Shown here piece after piece: positions 44,983-51,021 of a DNA stretch of 64,000 nucleotides. Below the pieces are notes generated by a model. It did no database searches. It was not told the DNA's origin and saw nothing but the letters and a program-made list of their open reading frames with translations. The translations under genes were made by a program, and so were the position numbers. Location: NCBI GenBank assembly GCA_963801935.1, contig CAWDHA010000032.1:18602-82601 (forward strand), written 5' to 3'. Each line of letters starts with the position of its first letter. The stretch's first letter is position 1. Origin of the DNA: an uncultured delta proteobacterium. GTDB lineage: Bacteria > Desulfobacterota > Binatia > UBA9968.

Positions 44983-46592
44983 ATGAATAACAGCGATCTC
45001 ATCGTCCGCATGCTGGAACAAGCCGGCGTGCGCTGGGTCTTCGGCGTGCCCAGCGGTCCGGTTTTGCCGCTGATCGAAGCGCTGCGGCAAAGTTCGGTCG
45101 ATTTTGTTCTCGACCGCCAGCGAGACTTCGGCTGGCTTTCATGGCTACAACCGTCGGTTATCTGACCGGCGTTCCCGGCGTGTGCGTTTCCACCGTGGGT
45201 CCCGGCGCGACCAATCTCACCACCGGCGTCGGCTCAGCCTGGCTCGACCGCGCGCCGGTGCTGGCGATCACCTGCAATGTCGCGATCGCCGTGGCTCGAG
45301 CGGCGCATCCAAATGCGCATCGATCACCATGCGCTCTTCAGGCCGCTGACCAAGGCGACTTTTGCGCTCCGCGACGGCCGCGTTGGCGCGAGTTTGGCGC
45401 AGGCGCTGGCGATTGCGACCGCAGAACCGCCCGGCCCGGTGCATCTCGATTTGCCCGAGGACATTGCCGTGCTGCGACGGCAAGGAGCGCGCGCTGCCGC
45501 ACCAGGGCGTGGCAGGCTGCCCGATCTATCGCGCGAGATCGCTCGGTTAGGATCTCGACGGCGTTGCGAAACGCGCGCCGTCCGTTGCTCGTCACCGGAT
45601 CTGAGCTTTACGCGCAGCAAGGCACCCGCAGCGCTTCTACGAGTTCATCGAGCGACAGAAGATTCCTTTCGTGACGACGCTGCACGCCAAAGGTTTTCTG
45701 CCCGAGAGTCATCCGCACTGGGCCGGCGTCATCGGCCGGGCGCGGCGCACCGACGTGAAAGCCTTTACCGACCGGGCCGATCTAATTCTGGCTGTCGGCT
45801 ACGATCCGATCGAAATCAACTATGAAGAATGGGCCGGCAAAACTCCGCTGGCGTTCATATCAGCAGCGAAGCGGCGGAGACCGGCACGAATCTAAATTTC
45901 GCTTGGAACGAGGCCTGCGATCTCGATGGCGCGATCGAGGCGCTTGGACGATTGCCGCGGCTGCACGAACGATTGGAGCGCCGCAGAGTTGCACCAACAT
46001 CGTCGAGCACTGGAGCGCGCGCTGCGTCCGCGCTGCCAGCGGCTTCGCGCCCCATCACGCGTTCGACATCCTGCGCGAGCAGCTGCCCGCAGACGGCATC
46101 CTCGCTTACGACGTCGGCGCGCACACGCATCAGATCGCCAGCCAGTGGCGCACCGATCTGCCGAAGACTTTGCTCGCGACCAATGGCTGGTCGTCGATGG
46201 GCTACGGCATGCCGGCCGCCTTTGCGGCGAAGCTGGTTCATCCCGAGCGCCCGTTGTCTGCGTCGTCGGCGACGGCGGCTTTCAGATGACCGCGGGCGAG
46301 CTGGCGACTGGCGCGCCGGCTGAATCTCGCGGTGCCGATGATCGTGCTCAACGACGGCTGGCTCGGCCTGATGAAAGTGAAGCAGGAGCGCAAACACTAT
46401 CCGCTTGTCGGGTGTTCACCTCGGCGAGCCGCCGGAGTCGCCGCCGCATTATTTCGGCGTGCCTTGCCGTCGCCGCCAAAACAGCCGAGCAATTTCGCGA
46501 GGCGCTCGATTGGGCATTCGCCCTAGACGGCCCCAGCGTCATCGAAGCTTTCATCGATGCCGAAGTCCTATTCAGACACTGTTTTCGATTGA
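44983..46592 (+). CDS. thiamine diphosphate-dependent enzyme (acetolactate synthase-like), many frameshifts
   Basis: VFGVP, STVGPGATN, PPGPVHLDLPED, YDVGAH, SSMGYGMP and GDGG..ND motifs. Confidence 0.85.
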
Positions 46593-46605
46593 TCGCGACT
46601 CTTCC

Positions 46606-47825
46606 ATGACCGACTCCGCGGCTCGCGCGCGATCGCTTTCGCTGGACCATTCTCGTCCTGATCAGCGTCTCGCATATCATCGGCGCCGCGGCGCAGTACG
46701 GCATCAACACGCTGGCGCCCTTCTACAAAGACGAGCTCGGGCTTAGTCGCGCGCCAGGTCGGGTTGTTTTTCTCGGCGTTTTATCTGCGCCATGACCGGC
46801 GCTTCTTTCGGCACCGGCTGGCTCGCCGACCGCTTGGGTGTGCGCAGGACGACCTTGCAGGGGCATGTGTTCGTCGGCGTCTGCACCGTCGCCGCGGCGT
46901 TTGCTCCGTCCTTTGCCTGGGCGTTGCGTGAGCTTTTTTCTCGCCGGACTGGGCTACAGTTTCTTCAATCCGGCTTCGACTAAAGGCGTGATGGCCTGGT
47001 TTCAGCGCGACGAGCGCGCCACCGCCATGGGTATCAAACAAACCGGCGTTCCGGCAGGCGGCGTGGTCACCGCGATGCTCGCGCCGCCGATGGTTTTGCT
47101 GATCGGCTGGCGCGGCGCTTTGGCGGCGCTGGGAATCATCAATTTTGTTTTCGGATTTGTTTTCTCCTGGCTCTGGCGCGACCCGGCCAACGACTTCGAT
47201 ACCGATCGCCGCGAAGACCGCGCCCGAGCTGAGACAGGACGCCGCTGAACATCGGCGGATTTCTCGCCGCAGCTGCGGCACCGCGCTGTATCTGATCGGC
47301 CAGATGGCGTTGATCACTTACGTGCCGCTGTATCTGAAAGAGTCCATGGGATTCTCGGCGTATTGGGCGAGCCAGGCCCTGGCGGTGACTCAGGCAGGCG
47401 CTATGGTCGGGCGCGTCGGCTGGGGAGTGGCCAGCGACAAAATCTTCGGCGGGCGGCGCAAGATCGTGCTACTTATTATCGGGCTCTTGAGCGTCGTCCT
47501 GATGAGCGCTCTCAGCGTCATGACCCGCGCTGCGCCGGTCTATTTACTGCTGCTGATCGTTTTTTTCCTGGGCCTTTGCATCATCGGCTATCAGGGGGTG
47601 TCGTACACCCTGATCGGCGAGCTGGCGGCAACCCAGCGCACCGGCGCCGCGATGGGCCTGATGATCACTATCAACGCCGCCGCCGCAACGTTCGGAACGC
47701 CGCTGTTCGGTTACATCGTCGATCAAACCGGCTCCTACGCCGTCGCATGGCAGGCGCTTGCCGCAGCGATCGCCATGGGTTGCGTTGGGCTCATGCTGTT
47801 TCTCGAAGAAACGCGCCGCGCGTAG
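46606..47825 (+). CDS. MFS transporter, frameshifted
   Basis: GWLADRLGVRR motif A, WF..ERATAMGIKQTG and GVASDKIFGGRR. Confidence 0.85.
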
Positions 47826-47884
47826 CAGCAAGTTACTGGACGAAGAAGCACGGCCGCAAAATTATCTCTCGAAAATTTTTGTTG

Positions 47885-47913
47885 TTGACAAACGCGGGAG
47901 CTGGGATTAGCCT
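47885..47913 (+). promoter_or_regulatory. sigma70-type promoter of the candidate ncRNA
   Basis: Perfect TTGACA, 17-nt spacer, TAGCCT; AT-rich UP-like tract upstream. Confidence 0.7.
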
Positions 47914-47920
47914 TTATTCA

Positions 47921-48309
47921 GATCCATTAAACGTCGCTCGGCGTGGGGGCAAATGGATCGCACGAATCGCGGGCCCCCGAAGGAAAAAACCGGCGAAAGG
48001 AGAGCTCAGAATGGAAATTGGTGCTCCACCGGATCATCCATGCCCGCCGTACGCGGGCCGTCAGCTGTCTGGGTCGAAGGCTGCTCTCGCGCTAAGGGTC
48101 CCCGCTAGACCTCAAACGTATTGCCTGTCGGCAAAAGTCGCCTAGGCGACAAATAAGGAAGGTCGCAAGCGGCAGGAGGCTCTGAAGCGCGGTCCAGGAA
48201 ACTGGCGAGACCGTCGCACATCGGGCTAACAAAGAAAAAAACAAATAGAAATTTTACGCGCGAATGCGCAAGGAAGAGCATCTTACCCGAGTAAGATGCT
48301 CTTTTTTTT
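47921..48309 (+). ncRNA. candidate structured noncoding RNA of about 390 nt, family unassigned
   Basis: Lies between a promoter and a terminator; at least eight predicted helices and a possible 5' pseudoknot; no recognisable protein. Confidence 0.55.
48274..48309 (+). terminator. intrinsic terminator
   Basis: Perfect 13-bp stem AAGAGCATCTTAC-CCGA-GTAAGATGCTCTT running into a T tract on the plus strand. Confidence 0.88.
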
Positions 48310-48321
48310 CCGACGCGACAG

Positions 48322-48615
48322 CTAGCCTACGACCTCATAGGTTTTGACCTGTACTTTGGCGACGTTCATCAGCGCGCGGGTATGTTGCTGGATCGTCCGA
48401 TGGGCGTCACTGATCCGATAGCGATCGATCACTTCCTGGTTATCCCAAGTGCTGAGCGAAATGAATTCACCCGGATTTTCCCGGTTACGCAAAAGCTGCT
48501 CGCTCTTGCAGCCCGGCTGCTCGATCAACAGGGCGCCGCAGTCTTCTTTCCATAAGCGTTCGGCCTCGGCGATGTTTTCCGCGGGCACATTGACGAGAAT
48601 CATGCGCGTGATCAT
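48322..48615 (-). CDS. antibiotic biosynthesis monooxygenase (ABM) domain protein
   Basis: QPGC..EQLL..PGEFISLSTWD..YR.S.AH pattern; AAGGAG RBS. Confidence 0.82.
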   Translation of the reverse strand: MITRMILVNVPAENIAEAERLWKEDCGALLIEQPGCKSEQLLRNRENPGEFISLSTWDNQEVIDRYRISDAHRTIQQHTRALMNVAKVQVKTYEVVG

Positions 48616-48914
48616 GGGTGCTGCTCCTTATTAGTTGGCGCGGGTCTCTCCTCCATGTCCGGCGGAGGATCGATCTCATTGGCCTTCTATGCGCGGCGCT
48701 AAAATTTGTCAAGCAATAAGTTTTTCGCCAGTGGTTCAGTATGATTGCCGCGCCGGAAATTTAGCGCCACAGCCACTGCTCCAAGCACCTTAGCAGGAGC
48801 TCGACCCCCAGGGTTTTTTTGATGCCGCGAAAGCTTGCGCGCCAGCGTGCCGGGATGAGTGAAGTTGTCGTTCTCCGCCGGTAACGCTACAATATCTGCG
48901 CTTGGAGCTCTCTT

Positions 48915-50161
48915 ATGTCTCAATCGGTCGTTCAGATTTCCGGTCATATCATCGATTCCCTCATACTTGCCCAAGGTGCTCGACCTGATCGTCAGCCTTG
49001 GCGCCGAATTCGAAATTCTGAATATTCAGAGTCGGCCACAACGAAGCGATCGTAGTATCGCGCGCATTAAAGTCGAAGCCCCAAGTCCGGAACAGCTCGA
49101 TCAGCGTCCTTGCGAAAATCAGAGAGCATGGCGCGTTGCCCGAGCAGATCGAACAGGAATCGGTGGAACTCGAAGCGGCGCCTGCTCGATGGTGTTTTTC
49201 CCGAGCGCTTTTACGCGACAACCAACTTGGAAACCTGGGTGCGGCTCGAACAGCAATGGATCCTCGTCGAATCGATCGAGATGGATTGCGGTATTCGTGT
49301 CGATGCAGCCGCTCACAAAGCGCAATGCGTGCCGATGCATCGCGTCATGCACGGTGATCTCGTCGTGGTGGGCCAGCGCGGCGTCAAGGTCGTGCCTCTG
49401 GATCGCCAGCAGCCAGGCGCAGCCCCCTTCGAATTTATGACCAGCGCGGTGTCCACGGAACAACCCAAAGGACTGTTGATCCGCGAGATCGCGGAATCGA
49501 TGCAGCGCGTGCGCCGCGAGAACGGCCGCATACTGGTGGTGGCGGGACCGGGGCTGGTCCACACCGGCGCTTCGAAGTTATCTCGTCGAGCTGATTGAAA
49601 ACGGCTACGTGCAGGTTCTTTTCGCCGGCAACGGACTCGCCGTCCACGATATGGAATCCGACCTTTACGGTACATCGCTGGGCGTTTACGTGGATAAGAA
49701 AATTCGCGCCAGCGAAGGCCACGAACATCATCTCTGGACCATCAACCGCATCCGGCGCGCCGGCGGCATACGGCAAGCCGTCGAGCAGGGACGTGATTCG
49801 CAAGGGGATCTTTTATGCTTGCGTGAAAAACGGCGTGGAGTTCGTGCTCGCCGGATCGATCCGCGACGATGGGCCGCTACCCGACGTGATCACCGATACC
49901 TTGGCGGCGCAGGACGTCATGCGCGAGAAGGCGCGCGGCGTGAGTTTCGCGTTGATGATAGCGACCACCTTGCATGCCATTGCCACGGGCAATCTCTTGC
50001 CCGCGAGCGTAAAGACGGTATGCGTCGATATCAATCCCGCGGTCGTGACCAAGCTTACCGATCGCGGCACTTTCCAAGCGCTGGGTTTAGTGACCGACGT
50101 CGAGCCGTTCTTGCGCGAGCTGTGCAGCGACTTGGATTTAAAAACCGTATGCAGCTCTTGA
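48915..50161 (+). CDS. TIGR00300/LOR-SDH family protein (ornithine cyclodeaminase-like), frameshifted
   Basis: [54 protein letters not shown] and VTKLTDRG motifs. Confidence 0.85.
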
Positions 50162-50942
50162 TGTGCGCCGCCGGTTTATTACGGCATCGAGTACGAGATC
50201 AATCCGTGGATGAAGCGAAGCCGCCAGAGCGATGCCGGGCTGGCGCTCAAGCAGTGGACTGAATTACAGCGGGTGCTGGCCGAGAACATTACCGGCAGAG
50301 GTTCAGTTGATCGATGCCAAGCCCGGGCTCCCGGATATGGTGTTTACCGCCAATGCCGGCGTGGTTTGGCAAAACAAGTTTATCGTGAGCAATTTCCGCC
50401 ACGAAGTGCGCCGGGGCGAGGCGGCGCATTTCGCACAATGGTTTCGCGCCCGCGGAGTCGAGATCGTTCACTTACCCGAAGAGTATTACTTCGAGGGCGA
50501 AGGCGACCTGCTGCGCTGCGGTGAGTTGTGGTTTGCTGGCTACCATATCCGCTCCGACGTGCTGGCGCACCAGAAGGCGGCTGAAATTGTCGGACAGGAA
50601 ATACTTTCGCTGGAGTTGACCAGCGACTGGTTTTACCACCTCGATACCTGCTTCTGCCCGCTGTCGGACAAAGTCGCGCTTTATTACCCTTCTGCCTTTG
50701 ACGATTATGCGAAAACGGTACTGGAAAATCATATACCCGGTCTGATCCCCGTGCCGCAAGACGAGGCAGAGCGTTTTGCCTGCAACGCTGTCGTCGGCGG
50801 CAACAACATTGTCATGAACACGGGTTGCCCGGTGGTTCGCGCCAAGCTCGAGGACCTCGGCTTCAACGTATACGAAACGCCTTTGGATGAGTTTCTGAAA
50901 GCCGGCGGCAGCGCCAAATGCCTCACGTTGATCATCGACTAG
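50149..50942 (+). CDS. amidinotransferase/arginine dihydrolase-like protein, frameshifted at the 5' end
   Basis: [35 protein letters not shown] and [12 protein letters not shown] motifs. Confidence 0.88.
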
Positions 50943-51021
50943 ACGCTCTGCGGCGGAAGCTATGGCTCCCTTTTCCTTACACGCATGTCTCGCTCTGTCG
51001 TCATCTAAATAAGTGCGTCAG

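What the first reader, a model, noticed from the sequence alone, without database searches (positions are those of the whole stretch)
47885..48309. Stand-alone, highly structured RNA gene candidate of about 390 nt with a possible 5' pseudoknot
Seen: a TTGACA-N17-TAGCCT promoter (47885-47913) and a perfect 13-bp terminator with a plus-strand T tract (48274-48309) enclose a stretch with no recognisable protein. Complementary segments: GATCCATT 47921-28 with AATGGATC 47952-59; GGGGGC 47945-50 in that loop with GCCCCC 47973-78 (pseudoknot geometry); CCGG..GGAG with CTCC.CCGG (47990-48032); GCCCGC/GCGGGC (48042-58); GTCTGG/CTAGAC (48067-48110); CCTGTCG/CGGCAGG (48124-76) enclosing a GTCGC/GCGAC hairpin; and CGGTC-CAG-GAAA-CTG-GCGA-GACCG (48190-48213) with a GNRA loop. 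An A-rich linker precedes the terminator. Several helices use G-U pairs, which favours RNA-level structure. It lacks the tmRNA, RNase P, SRP and intron signatures I know. Inference: an independently transcribed ncRNA that may be undescribed. Caveat: it lies in the indel-prone part of the assembly.
Basis: partly seen in the sequence, partly recalled or inferred. Interest (0 to 1): 0.85.

Follow-up and report, generated by a model that had tools for sequence, protein, structure and literature searches.

The report
Structured Binatia RNA with Pro-Pro ORF
This is an apparently undescribed, strongly folded RNA gene of about 390 bases, found only in one group of uncultured soil bacteria (Binatia); it also carries a tiny reading frame with a proline pair of the kind that slows ribosomes, so it may work both as an RNA and through being translated.

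Summary
The feature is real and matches no described family. Window 47886-48309 (+) is a self-contained unit with a -35/-10 promoter, about 390 nt of RNA and an intrinsic terminator. It is conserved in one order of Candidatus Binatia: 50 of 123 genomes searched, and 0 of 150 sampled elsewhere in the phylum. No Rfam family matches it, and tmRNA and RNase P lie elsewhere in these genomes.

On 36 diverse homologues, 86 modelled pairs are 90% paired, against 39-47% when partners are slid. Of these, 49 pairs show changes on both sides, against 27 in shuffles. The supported elements are a 5' stem, a plausible pseudoknot, a hairpin enclosing the ribosome-binding site and AUG, a long-range helix, a near-invariant three-way junction and the terminator.

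Of 77 homologues, 76 have AAAGGAGG, an AUG and a frame with Pro-Pro, usually at codons 6-7 and mostly followed by Asp, Gly or Asn. The rest of the peptide is not conserved.

Contigs from four soil RNA libraries lie on 47928-48227. They carry an extra G that restores the window's frame.

Best reading (0.45): a translated, dual-function or leader-like structured RNA. Its function is unknown.

The parts
47886..47914 (+). Promoter: -35 TTGACA (47886-91), 17-nt spacer, -10 TAGCCT (47909-14). The predicted start of the RNA is near 47920-47921.
   Evidence: Read directly. TTGACAA and the TA of the -10 are invariant in 9 of 9 homologues. A TTGACA lies 190-235 nt upstream of the core in 73 elements. 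The consensus scanner did not list it.
47921..47959 (+). 5' domain stem P1 (47921-28 with 47952-59), enclosing a small hairpin P1a (47932-35 with 47940-43).
   Evidence: P1 is 95.7% paired and 3 of its 8 pairs change on both sides (for example UA:15, CG:10, UG:8). Variants seen include GACTCA/TGAGTC and GGCGCACT/AGTGTGTC. P1a is 93.7% paired.
47945..47978 (+). Candidate H-type pseudoknot: GGGGGC (47945-50, in the P1 loop) with GCCCCC (47973-78).
   Evidence: a GGGGC/GCCCC core in 48 of 50 distinct 5' domains. The flanking pair is C-G, G-C or A-U in several of them; 87.1% paired, with 1 pair changed on both sides. The core never varies, so support is moderate.
47990..48032 (+). Hairpin enclosing the ribosome-binding site (AAAGGAGAG, 47996-48004) and the start codon (ATG, 48011-13). 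The GGAG pairs with CUCC (48024-27).
   Evidence: the outer helix is 91% paired. The inner helix is 84.5% paired, with 4 of 5 pairs changed on both sides (CG:16, UA:8, UG:5). SD plus ATG are present in 76 of 77 homologues.
48011..48145 (+). Short ORF as assembled: 44 codons, stop at 48143-45. Pro-Pro-Asp is at 48026-48034 (CCA CCG GAT). With the extra G seen behind 48095 in the RNA-library contigs it becomes 32 codons ending at TAG 48106-08, the usual stop.
   Evidence: for the ORF and its motif. for the +G in the contigs of 4 of 4 runs. One search shows that the frame of 47953..48108 is open up to that TAG.
48042..48058 (+). Local hairpin GCCCGC/GCGGGC inside the ORF. CCCGC is invariant.
   Evidence: 96.7% paired but with no change on both sides. 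instead paired CCCGC with a distal GCGGG near 48221-25. This is unresolved, and the two may be alternatives.
48069..48113 (+). 5' strand of the long-range helix. It is also the 3' half of the ORF and includes the invariant CTAGACCTC (48105-13).
   Evidence: helices 7-10, are 76-86% paired. Pairs changed on both sides number 6 of 6, 2 of 4, 4 of 5 and 7 of 11.
48121..48150 (+). Two hairpins of the three-way junction: TTGCC/GGCAA (48121-34) and GTCGC/GCGAC (48137-50).
   Evidence: 98.3% and 97.2% paired, with covariation (UA:26 and CG:8; GC:26, CG:4 and AU:2). This is the core of model R1.
48155..48197 (+). 3' strand of the long-range helix, starting with the near-invariant AAGGAAGGTC (48155-64) that closes the junction.
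   Evidence: In locus L112 the closing helix is fully exchanged (CGCTT/AAGCG) and AAGGAAGG is lost. The motif is therefore structural and not a second ribosome-binding site.
48198..48257 (+). Variable 3' hairpin region (to about 48225) followed by an A-rich linker (48226-48257).
   Evidence: Alignments. The A-rich character is kept but the sequence is not. The RNA-library contigs end at about 48222-48227.
48258..48309 (+). GCGC/GCGC hairpin (48258-69) and the intrinsic terminator (stem 48274-86 with 48291-48303, then T tract to 48309).
   Evidence: terminator helix 94.6% paired, with 13 of 14 pairs changed on both sides.

Best explanation
Window 47886-48309 encodes a stand-alone, lineage-specific, highly structured RNA of about 390 nt that is probably also translated. 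It would then be a dual-function or leader-like regulatory RNA.

Shown:
- It has its own promoter and terminator.
- Its folded architecture is supported by covariation: a 5' stem with a likely pseudoknot, a hairpin holding the ribosome-binding site and AUG, a long helix formed by the 3' half of the ORF and a downstream strand, and a near-invariant three-way junction capping that helix.
- Contigs from soil RNA libraries lie on it.
- It is restricted to one order of Candidatus Binatia.
- A perfect AAAGGAGG, an AUG and a short frame are conserved. The only invariant codons are Pro-Pro, usually at codons 6-7, mostly followed by Asp, Gly or Asn.

Inferred mechanism:
- The 5' domain gates ribosome access to the sequestered start site.
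- A ribosome that starts then slows at Pro-Pro-Asp. From established work on elongation factor P, XPPX motifs such as PPD, PPG and PPN need EF-P.
- As the ribosome moves on, it melts the long helix whose 5' strand is the ORF itself. The 3' domain and junction thereby switch between a closed and an open state.
- No gene follows on the same strand in most loci, so the output would act in trans, on an RNA or protein partner, or on the RNA's own stability.

The function is unknown.
For: Independent unit:
- Promoter and terminator are conserved.
- The nearest clustered downstream ORF is on the opposite strand in 28 of 30 loci. In the window it is an ABM-family gene on the - strand.

Structure:
- 86 pairs are 90.1% paired, against 84.2% in shuffles and 39.5-46.5% when partners are slid.
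- 49 pairs change on both sides, against 27.3 +/- 3.0 in shuffles (0 of 500 reach the observed value).
- The covariation score is 0.253 against 0.150.
- G-U pairs (202) outnumber A-C (109), which favours the + strand.

Not a known family:
- Rfam gave 0 matches on the window, only sub-threshold noise at E<=10, and 0 matches at E<=0.1 on 12 homologous loci.
- ARAGORN found no tRNA or tmRNA gene in the window.
- A canonical tmRNA lies elsewhere in 5 of 5 genomes and RNase P RNA in 4 of 5.

Distribution:
- 50 of 123 genomes of the order have it: 47 of 89 in family f1, 2 of 5 in f2, 0 of 28 in f3.
- 0 of 150 other genomes sampled across the phylum have it.
- 69 metagenome stretches and 7 genome stretches match the core pattern.

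RNA libraries: contigs of 237-299 nt from four studies lie on 47928-48227 at about 95-96% identity.

ORF:
- SD, ATG and an ORF with Pro-Pro occur in 76 of 77 homologues, with Pro-Pro at codon 6 in 71 of 76.
- The two Pro codons vary only at the third base: CCA 66, CCG 8, CCC 2; then CCT 45, CCG 24, CCC 4, CCA 3.
- The next residue is D in 56, G in 9 and N in 4 of 76.
- Thr-Pro-Pro is kept as ACG CCG CCG in the divergent L113 and L114, which lack the whole 5' domain.
- The stop is TAA at the same place in L111.
- Indels of +3 and -21 nt, and a compensated -1/+1, keep the frame.
- CCA and CCT are the rarer Pro codons here, about 13% and 10-15% in long open frames.
- The abstract of Krafczyk et al. 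2021 (PMC8129111) reports that in E. coli CCA has a limiting tRNA and tunes pausing.
Against: - There is no direct evidence of translation.
- Over the whole ORF there is no protein-level selection. pN/pS is 0.75 in frame against 0.77 and 1.00 in the other two frames. Entropy by codon position is 0.79, 0.75 and 0.87.
- About 12 of 73 elements lack the canonical ATG-to-TAG frame. One of them (L017) has lost the ribosome-binding site and AUG altogether.
- The distance from the ATG to the junction changes by non-multiples of 3 in about 10 of 37 representatives, and the stop then moves.
- The CC.CC bases could be an RNA feature. The first CC pairs with GG of the GGAG, and the second may pair with an upstream GG.
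- No downstream gene or trans target is known.
- Hfq was found in 0 of 5 genomes that carry the RNA.
- The RNA-library contigs do not give strand or ends, and such libraries can hold DNA.
Confidence: 0.45

Rival explanations
1. It is a purely non-coding structured RNA. It would serve as a scaffold or decoy that binds a protein or a small ligand. The AAAGGAGG, the AUG and the CC.CC run are then RNA-level motifs, and the open frame is incidental.
For: - Covariation is strong across the whole molecule, including the ORF.
- pN/pS is 0.75 and not better than out-of-frame controls, with no three-base periodicity.
- About 12 of 73 frames are broken or shifted, and L017 lacks the SD and AUG.
- Stop positions drift in divergent members.
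- GGAG pairs with C.CC of the Pro region.
- A 33-codon open frame is not rare by chance at this G+C content (inference).
Against: - SD plus ATG at a fixed spacing in 76 of 77 homologues.
- CCN CCN is invariant and varies only at third positions. This holds where the paired U or the upstream GG is lost, as in L012, L110, L113 and L114.
- The following codon stays GAY, GGY or AAY.
- Indels keep the frame, and the stop switches from TAG to TAA at the same site.
Confidence: 0.3
2. It is an ordinary mRNA for a small protein of 26-34 residues. The structured 5' and 3' untranslated regions only control its translation and stability. The peptide is the sole effector.
For: - A perfect ribosome-binding site, an AUG and a conserved N-terminal pattern M-x-[DE]-x-x-P-P-[DGN]...P-x-x-[AV]-G.
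- A 5' domain upstream of a sequestered start site, laid out like a riboswitch.
Against: - The most conserved bases lie outside or at the end of the ORF, at the junction.
- The C-terminal half is not conserved as protein and shifts frame in several members.
- No Pfam or NCBIfam family matches 8 peptides. The only hit up to E=10 is one spurious Pfam match at E 0.18.
- The conserved 3' domain is more than twice the length of the ORF.
Confidence: 0.15
3. It is a cis-acting leader or attenuator of a neighbouring gene. One candidate is the nearby split ArgZ-like pair that would make proline from arginine. Another is the cytidylate-kinase-like/BON gene.
For: - A Pro-codon leader next to ArgZ-like_C and DDAH-like genes in 29 loci: divergent in 26 and downstream in 3, the window among them.
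- In 5 of 15 further contexts the cytidylate-kinase-like/BON gene lies on the same strand about 0.8 kb from the core.
Against: - The ArgZ-like gene is on the other strand, or behind a convergent gene. In L018 it looks leaderless.
- It is absent within 8 kb in 15 of 15 further contexts.
- A strong terminator ends the RNA in all members.
- The nearest downstream ORF is convergent in 28 of 30 loci.
Confidence: 0.04
4. It is an artefact: a decayed or frameshifted protein gene, or a misassembly in an indel-prone contig.
For: The contig has indels. The MFS and ArgZ-like genes are split over frames. Two single-G differences from near-identical RNA-library contigs fall within the element.
Against: The same element, with compensatory base changes, occurs in 50 genomes and 69 metagenome stretches assembled independently.
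Confidence: 0.01

Closest known systems
Dual-function small RNAs with an internal small ORF (SgrS/SgrT, RNAIII/hld, SR1/SR1P). Named from recall; no call tested them.
   Same: A free-standing gene with its own promoter and intrinsic terminator. A short ORF near the 5' end, followed by a larger structured RNA part.
   Different: There is no sequence or Rfam relation. Hfq was found in 0 of 5 carrier genomes. The ORF is itself one strand of the main helix. The peptide is conserved only around Pro-Pro. No target is known.
Pro-codon leader ORFs of the Salmonella Mg2+ transport operons (mgtL, mgtP). Abstract of PMC5299641 read; the rest recalled.
   Same: A short ORF whose proline codons make ribosome progress depend on EF-P and prolyl-tRNA, coupled to RNA structures downstream.
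   Different: Those are 5' leaders that control the genes behind them. Here a strong terminator ends the RNA and the next gene is usually convergent. No terminator/antiterminator pair overlaps the ORF.
tmRNA (RF00023)
   Same: A structured RNA of about 350-400 nt with a pseudoknot and an internal short reading frame whose stop lies in a helix.
   Different: It has no tRNA-like domain. It has its own ribosome-binding site and AUG. A canonical tmRNA is present elsewhere in 5 of 5 genomes, including this one.
Large structured bacterial RNAs of unknown function (OLE, ROOL, GOLLD, raiA motif). Named from recall. The raiA paper PMC11706538 and the discovery papers appeared only in the listings.
   Same: Long, lineage-restricted and rich in covariation, found by comparative analysis.
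   Different: No Rfam hit to any of them. Those RNAs have no conserved translated frame.

Membership tests
tmRNA | A tRNA-like acceptor/T-arm domain, detectable by ARAGORN or Rfam RF00023. | tested here: not met
   ARAGORN found 0 genes in the window. No Rfam match. The genome's tmRNA is on another contig.
tmRNA | A tag frame entered without a ribosome-binding site or AUG. | tested here: not met
   AAAGGAGG plus ATG in 76 of 77 homologues.
RNase P RNA / 6S RNA | A match to the family covariance model. | tested here: not met
   No hit on the window. RNase P RNA lies elsewhere in 4 of 5 genomes. 6S RNA was found in 1 of 5 genomes, G025, which also carries this RNA.
Known riboswitch and ribozyme classes (Rfam 15) | A match of the 5' pseudoknot domain, or any other part, to a curated model. 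| tested here: not met
   0 matches at gathering score. The best sub-threshold hit, 19.9 bits against a cut-off of 40 for c-di-GMP-II-GAG, falls on an unrelated 3' piece. 0 matches at E<=0.1 on 12 homologous loci.
Leader-peptide attenuator | A short ORF enriched in codons of the sensed amino acid. | tested here: met
   Pro at codons 6 and 7 and a further Pro near codon 12 in most members listed.
Leader-peptide attenuator | A controlled gene downstream on the same strand, and a terminator/antiterminator choice set by the ribosome. | tested here: not met
   The nearest downstream ORF is convergent in 28 of 30 loci. The terminator lies about 165-200 nt beyond the stop, and no competing pairing was found.
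Dual-function sRNA | An independent transcription unit that contains a small ORF with a ribosome-binding site. | tested here: met
Dual-function sRNA | The ORF is translated, and the RNA separately regulates targets by base pairing. | not testable with these tools
   No ribosome profiling, proteomics or target data exist for these uncultured organisms.
CsrB/RsmZ-type CsrA sponge | CsrA is present in carrier genomes, and many GGA motifs sit in loops. | tested here: not met
   CsrA was found in only 2 of 5 carrier genomes. The three AAGGA motifs are base-paired helix strands that covary.
Hfq-dependent sRNA | Hfq is encoded by the carriers. | tested here: not met
   Hfq (PF17209) was found in 0 of 5 genomes, two of them at least 97% complete.

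The most novel reading that the evidence does not exclude
A free-standing 'ribosome-progress sensor' RNA: a leader-peptide switch uncoupled from any downstream gene. Translation of the Pro-Pro-Asp frame depends on EF-P and prolyl-tRNA and is gated by a ligand-binding pseudoknot domain. It unzips the long helix made by the ORF itself and remodels the invariant three-way-junction domain. That domain then acts in trans. The RNA would thereby report translational or proline status to the cell.
Probability: 0.2. Interest if true: 0.9.

Novelty: new variant of a known kind. Interest (0 to 1): 0.7.

Why it matters
Binatia are widespread, uncultured soil and sediment bacteria, and the searches here found no paper describing a regulatory RNA in them. 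This element would be a new class of large structured RNA, backed by covariation and by contigs from RNA libraries. Its design is unusual: the reading frame is one strand of the RNA's main helix, and the only codons under clear constraint are a proline pair of the kind that slows ribosomes.

If the frame is translated, the RNA offers a compact natural system for studying how ribosome pausing reshapes an RNA that is not a leader of another gene. If it is not translated, it is a new structured RNA with a near-invariant three-way junction that probably binds a protein or ligand. Either way it can be tested directly in vitro without culturing the host.

Tried and rejected
Known families. Rfam was run at gathering score on the window, at E<=10 on 47800-48400 and at E<=0.1 on 12 homologous loci. 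ARAGORN was run on the window. Nothing was found. The first 6S search gave no answer and was repeated once, as the tool advised.

Hfq-dependent sRNA. The A-rich linker looked like an Hfq site, but Hfq was found in 0 of 5 carrier genomes. Rejected.

CsrA sponge. There are three AAGGA motifs, but CsrA was found in only 2 of 5 carriers and the motifs are paired helix strands. Rejected.

Link to proline synthesis. The split ArgZ-like pair lies next to the RNA in 29 loci but in 0 of 15 further contexts. It is on the other strand and looks leaderless in L018. I treat this as shared gene order and not as evidence.

Second ORF behind AAGGAAGG. An ATG follows in L009 but not in the window, reading the alignment. 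Rejected.

Protein families for the peptide. None was found: one spurious Pfam hit at E 0.18 and nothing in NCBIfam.

Local against distal pairing of the invariant CCCGC. RNAalifold chose the distal partner on 9 and on 21 sequences and the local hairpin on 36. The single apparent compensatory change (GUGG/CCAC) occurs in one clade only. Unresolved.

Folding energy as a test. The z-scores are similar on both strands, so it is not informative.

GTCTGG/CTAGAC, CCTGTCG/CGGCAGG and CGGTC..GACCG with CAG/CTG are not conserved.

Cover in RNA libraries. None of the laid contigs that match at about 95% covers the flanks, 47700-47927 and 48228-48700. No DNA run was laid beside them.

I did not use the search for homologous proteins, the search of protein representatives, structure prediction, complex prediction or the atlas. 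No full-length covariance model was built because about 400 positions exceeds the calibration limit, so the alignments are MAFFT alignments and the pair counts are conservative. Supplementary files of papers were not opened. Of the papers, I saw only listings and the outlines with abstracts of PMC8129111 and PMC5299641.

Unpublished genomes. G009 and G063 are flagged unpublished. G009 supplies one row (L007/L012) of alignments A1-A5 and one of the hits. G063 is one of the 50 hits. No conclusion rests on either alone.
Full report
WHAT IS THERE

The 496-base gap between an MFS-type transporter gene (+, ends 47825) and a 97-residue ABM-family gene on the - strand (48322-48615) holds the element. 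TTGACA (47886-91), a 17-nt spacer and TAGCCT (47909-14) lie upstream. A 13-bp hairpin followed by eight T (48274-48309) closes it.

The simple consensus scanner listed neither signal. TAGCCT matches TATAAT at only three positions. The case for both rests on conservation.

Folding energy is unremarkable and similar on both strands: z -2.39 on + and -2.92 on -.

NOT A KNOWN FAMILY

- Rfam 15 gave no match on the whole window at gathering score.
- At E<=10 on 47800-48400 it gave only four far-sub-threshold hits, on the terminator or a short 3' piece.
- It gave nothing at E<=0.1 on 12 homologous loci.
- ARAGORN found no tRNA or tmRNA gene in the window.
- A canonical tmRNA lies elsewhere in 5 of 5 genomes tested, including this one. 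RNase P RNA lies elsewhere in 4 of 5. The exception is the window's own genome, which is 61% complete.
- 6S RNA was detected in 1 of 5 genomes. That genome, G025, also carries the element.

HOMOLOGUES AND DISTRIBUTION

- The genome has one copy.
- BLAST found the region in 6 of 40 related genomes, all in the same family.
- An exact pattern from the most conserved core found 7 stretches in the species-representative genomes. Their record titles read Candidatus Binatia (4), Deltaproteobacteria bacterium (2) and uncultured Syntrophobacter (1). The same kind of pattern found 69 stretches in metagenome contigs.
- A covariance model of the core (R1) found it in 50 of 123 genomes of the order. By family the counts are 47 of 89, 2 of 5 and 0 of 28. 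It occurs in 19 of 27 genera and in 20 of 58 high-quality genomes. Six genomes have two copies.
- It was found in 0 of 150 other genomes sampled across the phylum.
- Filters were strict and many genomes are incomplete, so 'not found' does not mean absent.

THE UNIT IS CONSERVED AS A WHOLE

TTGACAA and the TA of the -10 are invariant in nine aligned homologues. A TTGACA lies 190-235 nt upstream of the core in 73 elements, 65 of them unique. The terminator is present throughout, with compensatory changes in 13 of its 14 pairs. In 28 of the 30 loci with a clustered ORF downstream, the nearest one is on the opposite strand. The element is therefore not a 5' leader.

STRUCTURE

On 36 diverse full-length homologues (alignment A5) I counted a model of 86 pairs. 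The model was the RNAalifold consensus with the pseudoknot added. Results:

| Measure | Observed | Shuffled | Partners slid 1-3 columns |
|---|---|---|---|
| Cells paired | 90.1% | 84.2% | 39.5-46.5% |
| Pairs changed on both sides | 49 | 27.3 +/- 3.0 (0 of 500 reach 49) | 25-41 |
| Covariation score | 0.253 | 0.150 | 0.069-0.093 |

Well-supported helices:

| Helix | Window coordinates | Cells paired | Support |
|---|---|---|---|
| P1 | 47921-28 with 47952-59 | 95.7% | variants such as GGCGCACT/AGTGTGTC |
| Inner helix of the start-site hairpin | within 47990-48032 | 84.5% | 4 of 5 pairs changed on both sides |
| Long-range helices | 48069-48113 with 48158-48197 | 76-86% | 19 of 26 pairs changed on both sides |
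| Junction hairpin 1 | 48121-34 | 98.3% | covaries |
| Junction hairpin 2 | 48137-50 | 97.2% | covaries |
| Terminator | 48274-86 with 48291-48303 | 94.6% | 13 of 14 pairs changed on both sides |

In locus L112 the helix that closes the junction is fully exchanged and the AAGGAAGG motif is lost. That motif is therefore structural.

The pseudoknot is plausible but only moderately supported. A GGGGC/GCCCC core occurs in 48 of 50 distinct 5' domains. The neighbouring pair appears as C-G, G-C or A-U in several members. The core never varies, and random complementarity in such G+C-rich loops is common: 41% of shuffles reach 5 bp.

The GCCCGC/GCGGGC hairpin is 96.7% paired but shows no covariation. 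A distal GCGGG is an alternative partner.

G-U pairs (202) outnumber A-C (109), which favours the + strand.

THE OVERLOOKED ORF

AAAGGAGAG (47996-48004) and ATG (48011) open a frame. In most homologues this frame has 33-34 codons and ends at the TAG of the invariant CTAGACCTCAA, at the foot of the junction.

Across 77 sequences, 76 have a ribosome-binding site, an ATG and a frame with Pro-Pro. Pro-Pro sits at codon 6 in 71 of 76. Further figures:

| Position | Counts among 76 |
|---|---|
| First Pro codon | CCA 66, CCG 8, CCC 2 |
| Second Pro codon | CCT 45, CCG 24, CCC 4, CCA 3 |
| Next residue | D 56, G 9, N 4, others 7 |
| Stop codon | TAG 64, TAA 9, TGA 3 |

- The frame has 33 codons in 49 sequences.
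- Very divergent members keep the motif. L113 and L114 lack the whole 5' domain, since their promoter lies about 75 nt before the ATG. They still read ACG CCG CCG.
- L111 has TAA at the same place as the usual TAG.
- CCA and CCT are the rarer Pro codons in long frames here, about 13% and 10-15%.

Against a real protein:
- pN/pS over 41 gapless unique ORFs is 0.75 in frame, against 0.77 and 1.00 out of frame, with almost no codon periodicity.
- About 12 of 73 elements have a broken or shifted frame, and L017 has lost the ribosome-binding site and AUG.
- The distance from the ATG to the junction is 104 nt in 20 of 37 representatives. It changes by non-multiples of three in about ten, and the stop then moves.
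- The peptides match no Pfam or NCBIfam family.
- Part of the CC.CC conservation can be explained by pairing with GG of the ribosome-binding site.

My reading is that translation of the frame and the Pro-Pro pause matter, and the peptide as a whole does not.

RNA LIBRARIES AND THE WINDOW'S FRAME

Contigs of 237-299 nt from four soil metatranscriptome runs of four studies lie on 47928-48227, with 7-12 differences and two one-base gaps each. Other family members appear in two of the same runs, X10 and X17. Contigs give no strand or true ends, and such libraries can hold DNA.

All four runs' contigs carry an extra G behind 48095 and another behind 48183. The first turns the window's 44-codon frame (stop at 48143-45) into 32 codons ending at the canonical TAG 48106-08. 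That frame is open there.

CONTEXT

A split ArgZ-like pair lies next to the element in 29 loci. The pair consists of a LOR/SDH-N plus ArgZ-like_C protein and a DDAH-like protein. It is divergent in 26 loci and downstream in 3, the window included.

By recall, cyanobacterial ArgZ/AgrE converts arginine to ornithine and on to proline. That is suggestive next to a Pro-Pro frame. However, the pair is absent within 8 kb in 15 of 15 further contexts. It is on the other strand and looks leaderless in L018. I count it as shared gene order only.

Hfq is absent from 5 of 5 carriers and CsrA from 3 of 5.

LITERATURE

No paper in the library holds Binatota with ncRNA, or Binatia with non-coding RNA. Broader searches listed only general discovery papers. 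Supplements were not opened.

VERDICT

This is a real family of structured RNA genes that the searches here did not find described, restricted to one order of Binatia. My confidence in that statement is about 0.9.

The most likely reading (0.45) is that the RNA is also translated. On that reading it would work as a stand-alone, leader-like or dual-function RNA in which a Pro-Pro pause and ribosome passage remodel the long helix and junction domain. A purely non-coding scaffold (0.30) and a plain small-protein mRNA (0.15) remain open. The function is unknown.

Noticed in passing
window 45926-47825 and 48859-50260: Neighbouring genes are split over several frames: the MFS transporter (45926-46609, 46838-47248, 47145-47825) and the ArgZ-like gene. 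This fits the view that the contig carries indel errors. Two single-G differences from near-identical RNA-library contigs fall inside the element, behind 48095 and 48183.
   Followed up: partly
window about 48859-51000; L018:1661-2902; L051:489-1277: A split ArgZ/AgrE-like pair lies beside the RNA in 29 loci but in 0 of 15 further contexts. The pair is a LOR/SDH-N plus ArgZ-like_C protein and a DDAH-like amidinotransferase. By recall it would convert arginine to ornithine and proline. In L018 the first gene looks leaderless, with TAAAAT five bases before its ATG.
   Followed up: partly
metagenome loci L016-L084: About a third of the 69 metagenome contigs end within a few hundred bases of the element (for example L021, L022, L042, L044, L061, L072). 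This is what one expects if assemblies break at a sequence shared by co-occurring strains or copies.
   Followed up: no
L113:1374-1694 (-), L114:1428-1742 (+): A subfamily in two genera lacks the whole 5' stem and pseudoknot domain. Its promoter lies about 75 nt before the ATG. It keeps the ribosome-binding site, the Pro-Pro frame (26 codons), the junction and the terminator.
   Followed up: partly
L041:526-952, L049, L091, L100: A variant carries an insertion of about 19 nt that duplicates a ribosome-binding-site-like GAGGAGG and an ATG just upstream of the usual start.
   Followed up: no
L017:55-434 (-): One metagenome copy has lost about 19 nt that cover the ribosome-binding site and AUG, but keeps the rest of the RNA. 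It is either a natural test of whether translation is needed or an assembly error.
   Followed up: no
G066, G090, G094, G096, G115, G119: Six genomes hold two copies of different subtypes. In one subtype a CpxP/Spy-like (Metal_resist) gene is divergent upstream, and the cytidylate-kinase-like/BON gene lies on the same strand about 0.8 kb from the core.
   Followed up: partly
window 48274-48321: The terminator hairpin sits 13 bases from the stop of the convergent ABM gene (48322-48615, -). It may serve both transcripts, although its T tract is on the + strand only.
   Followed up: no
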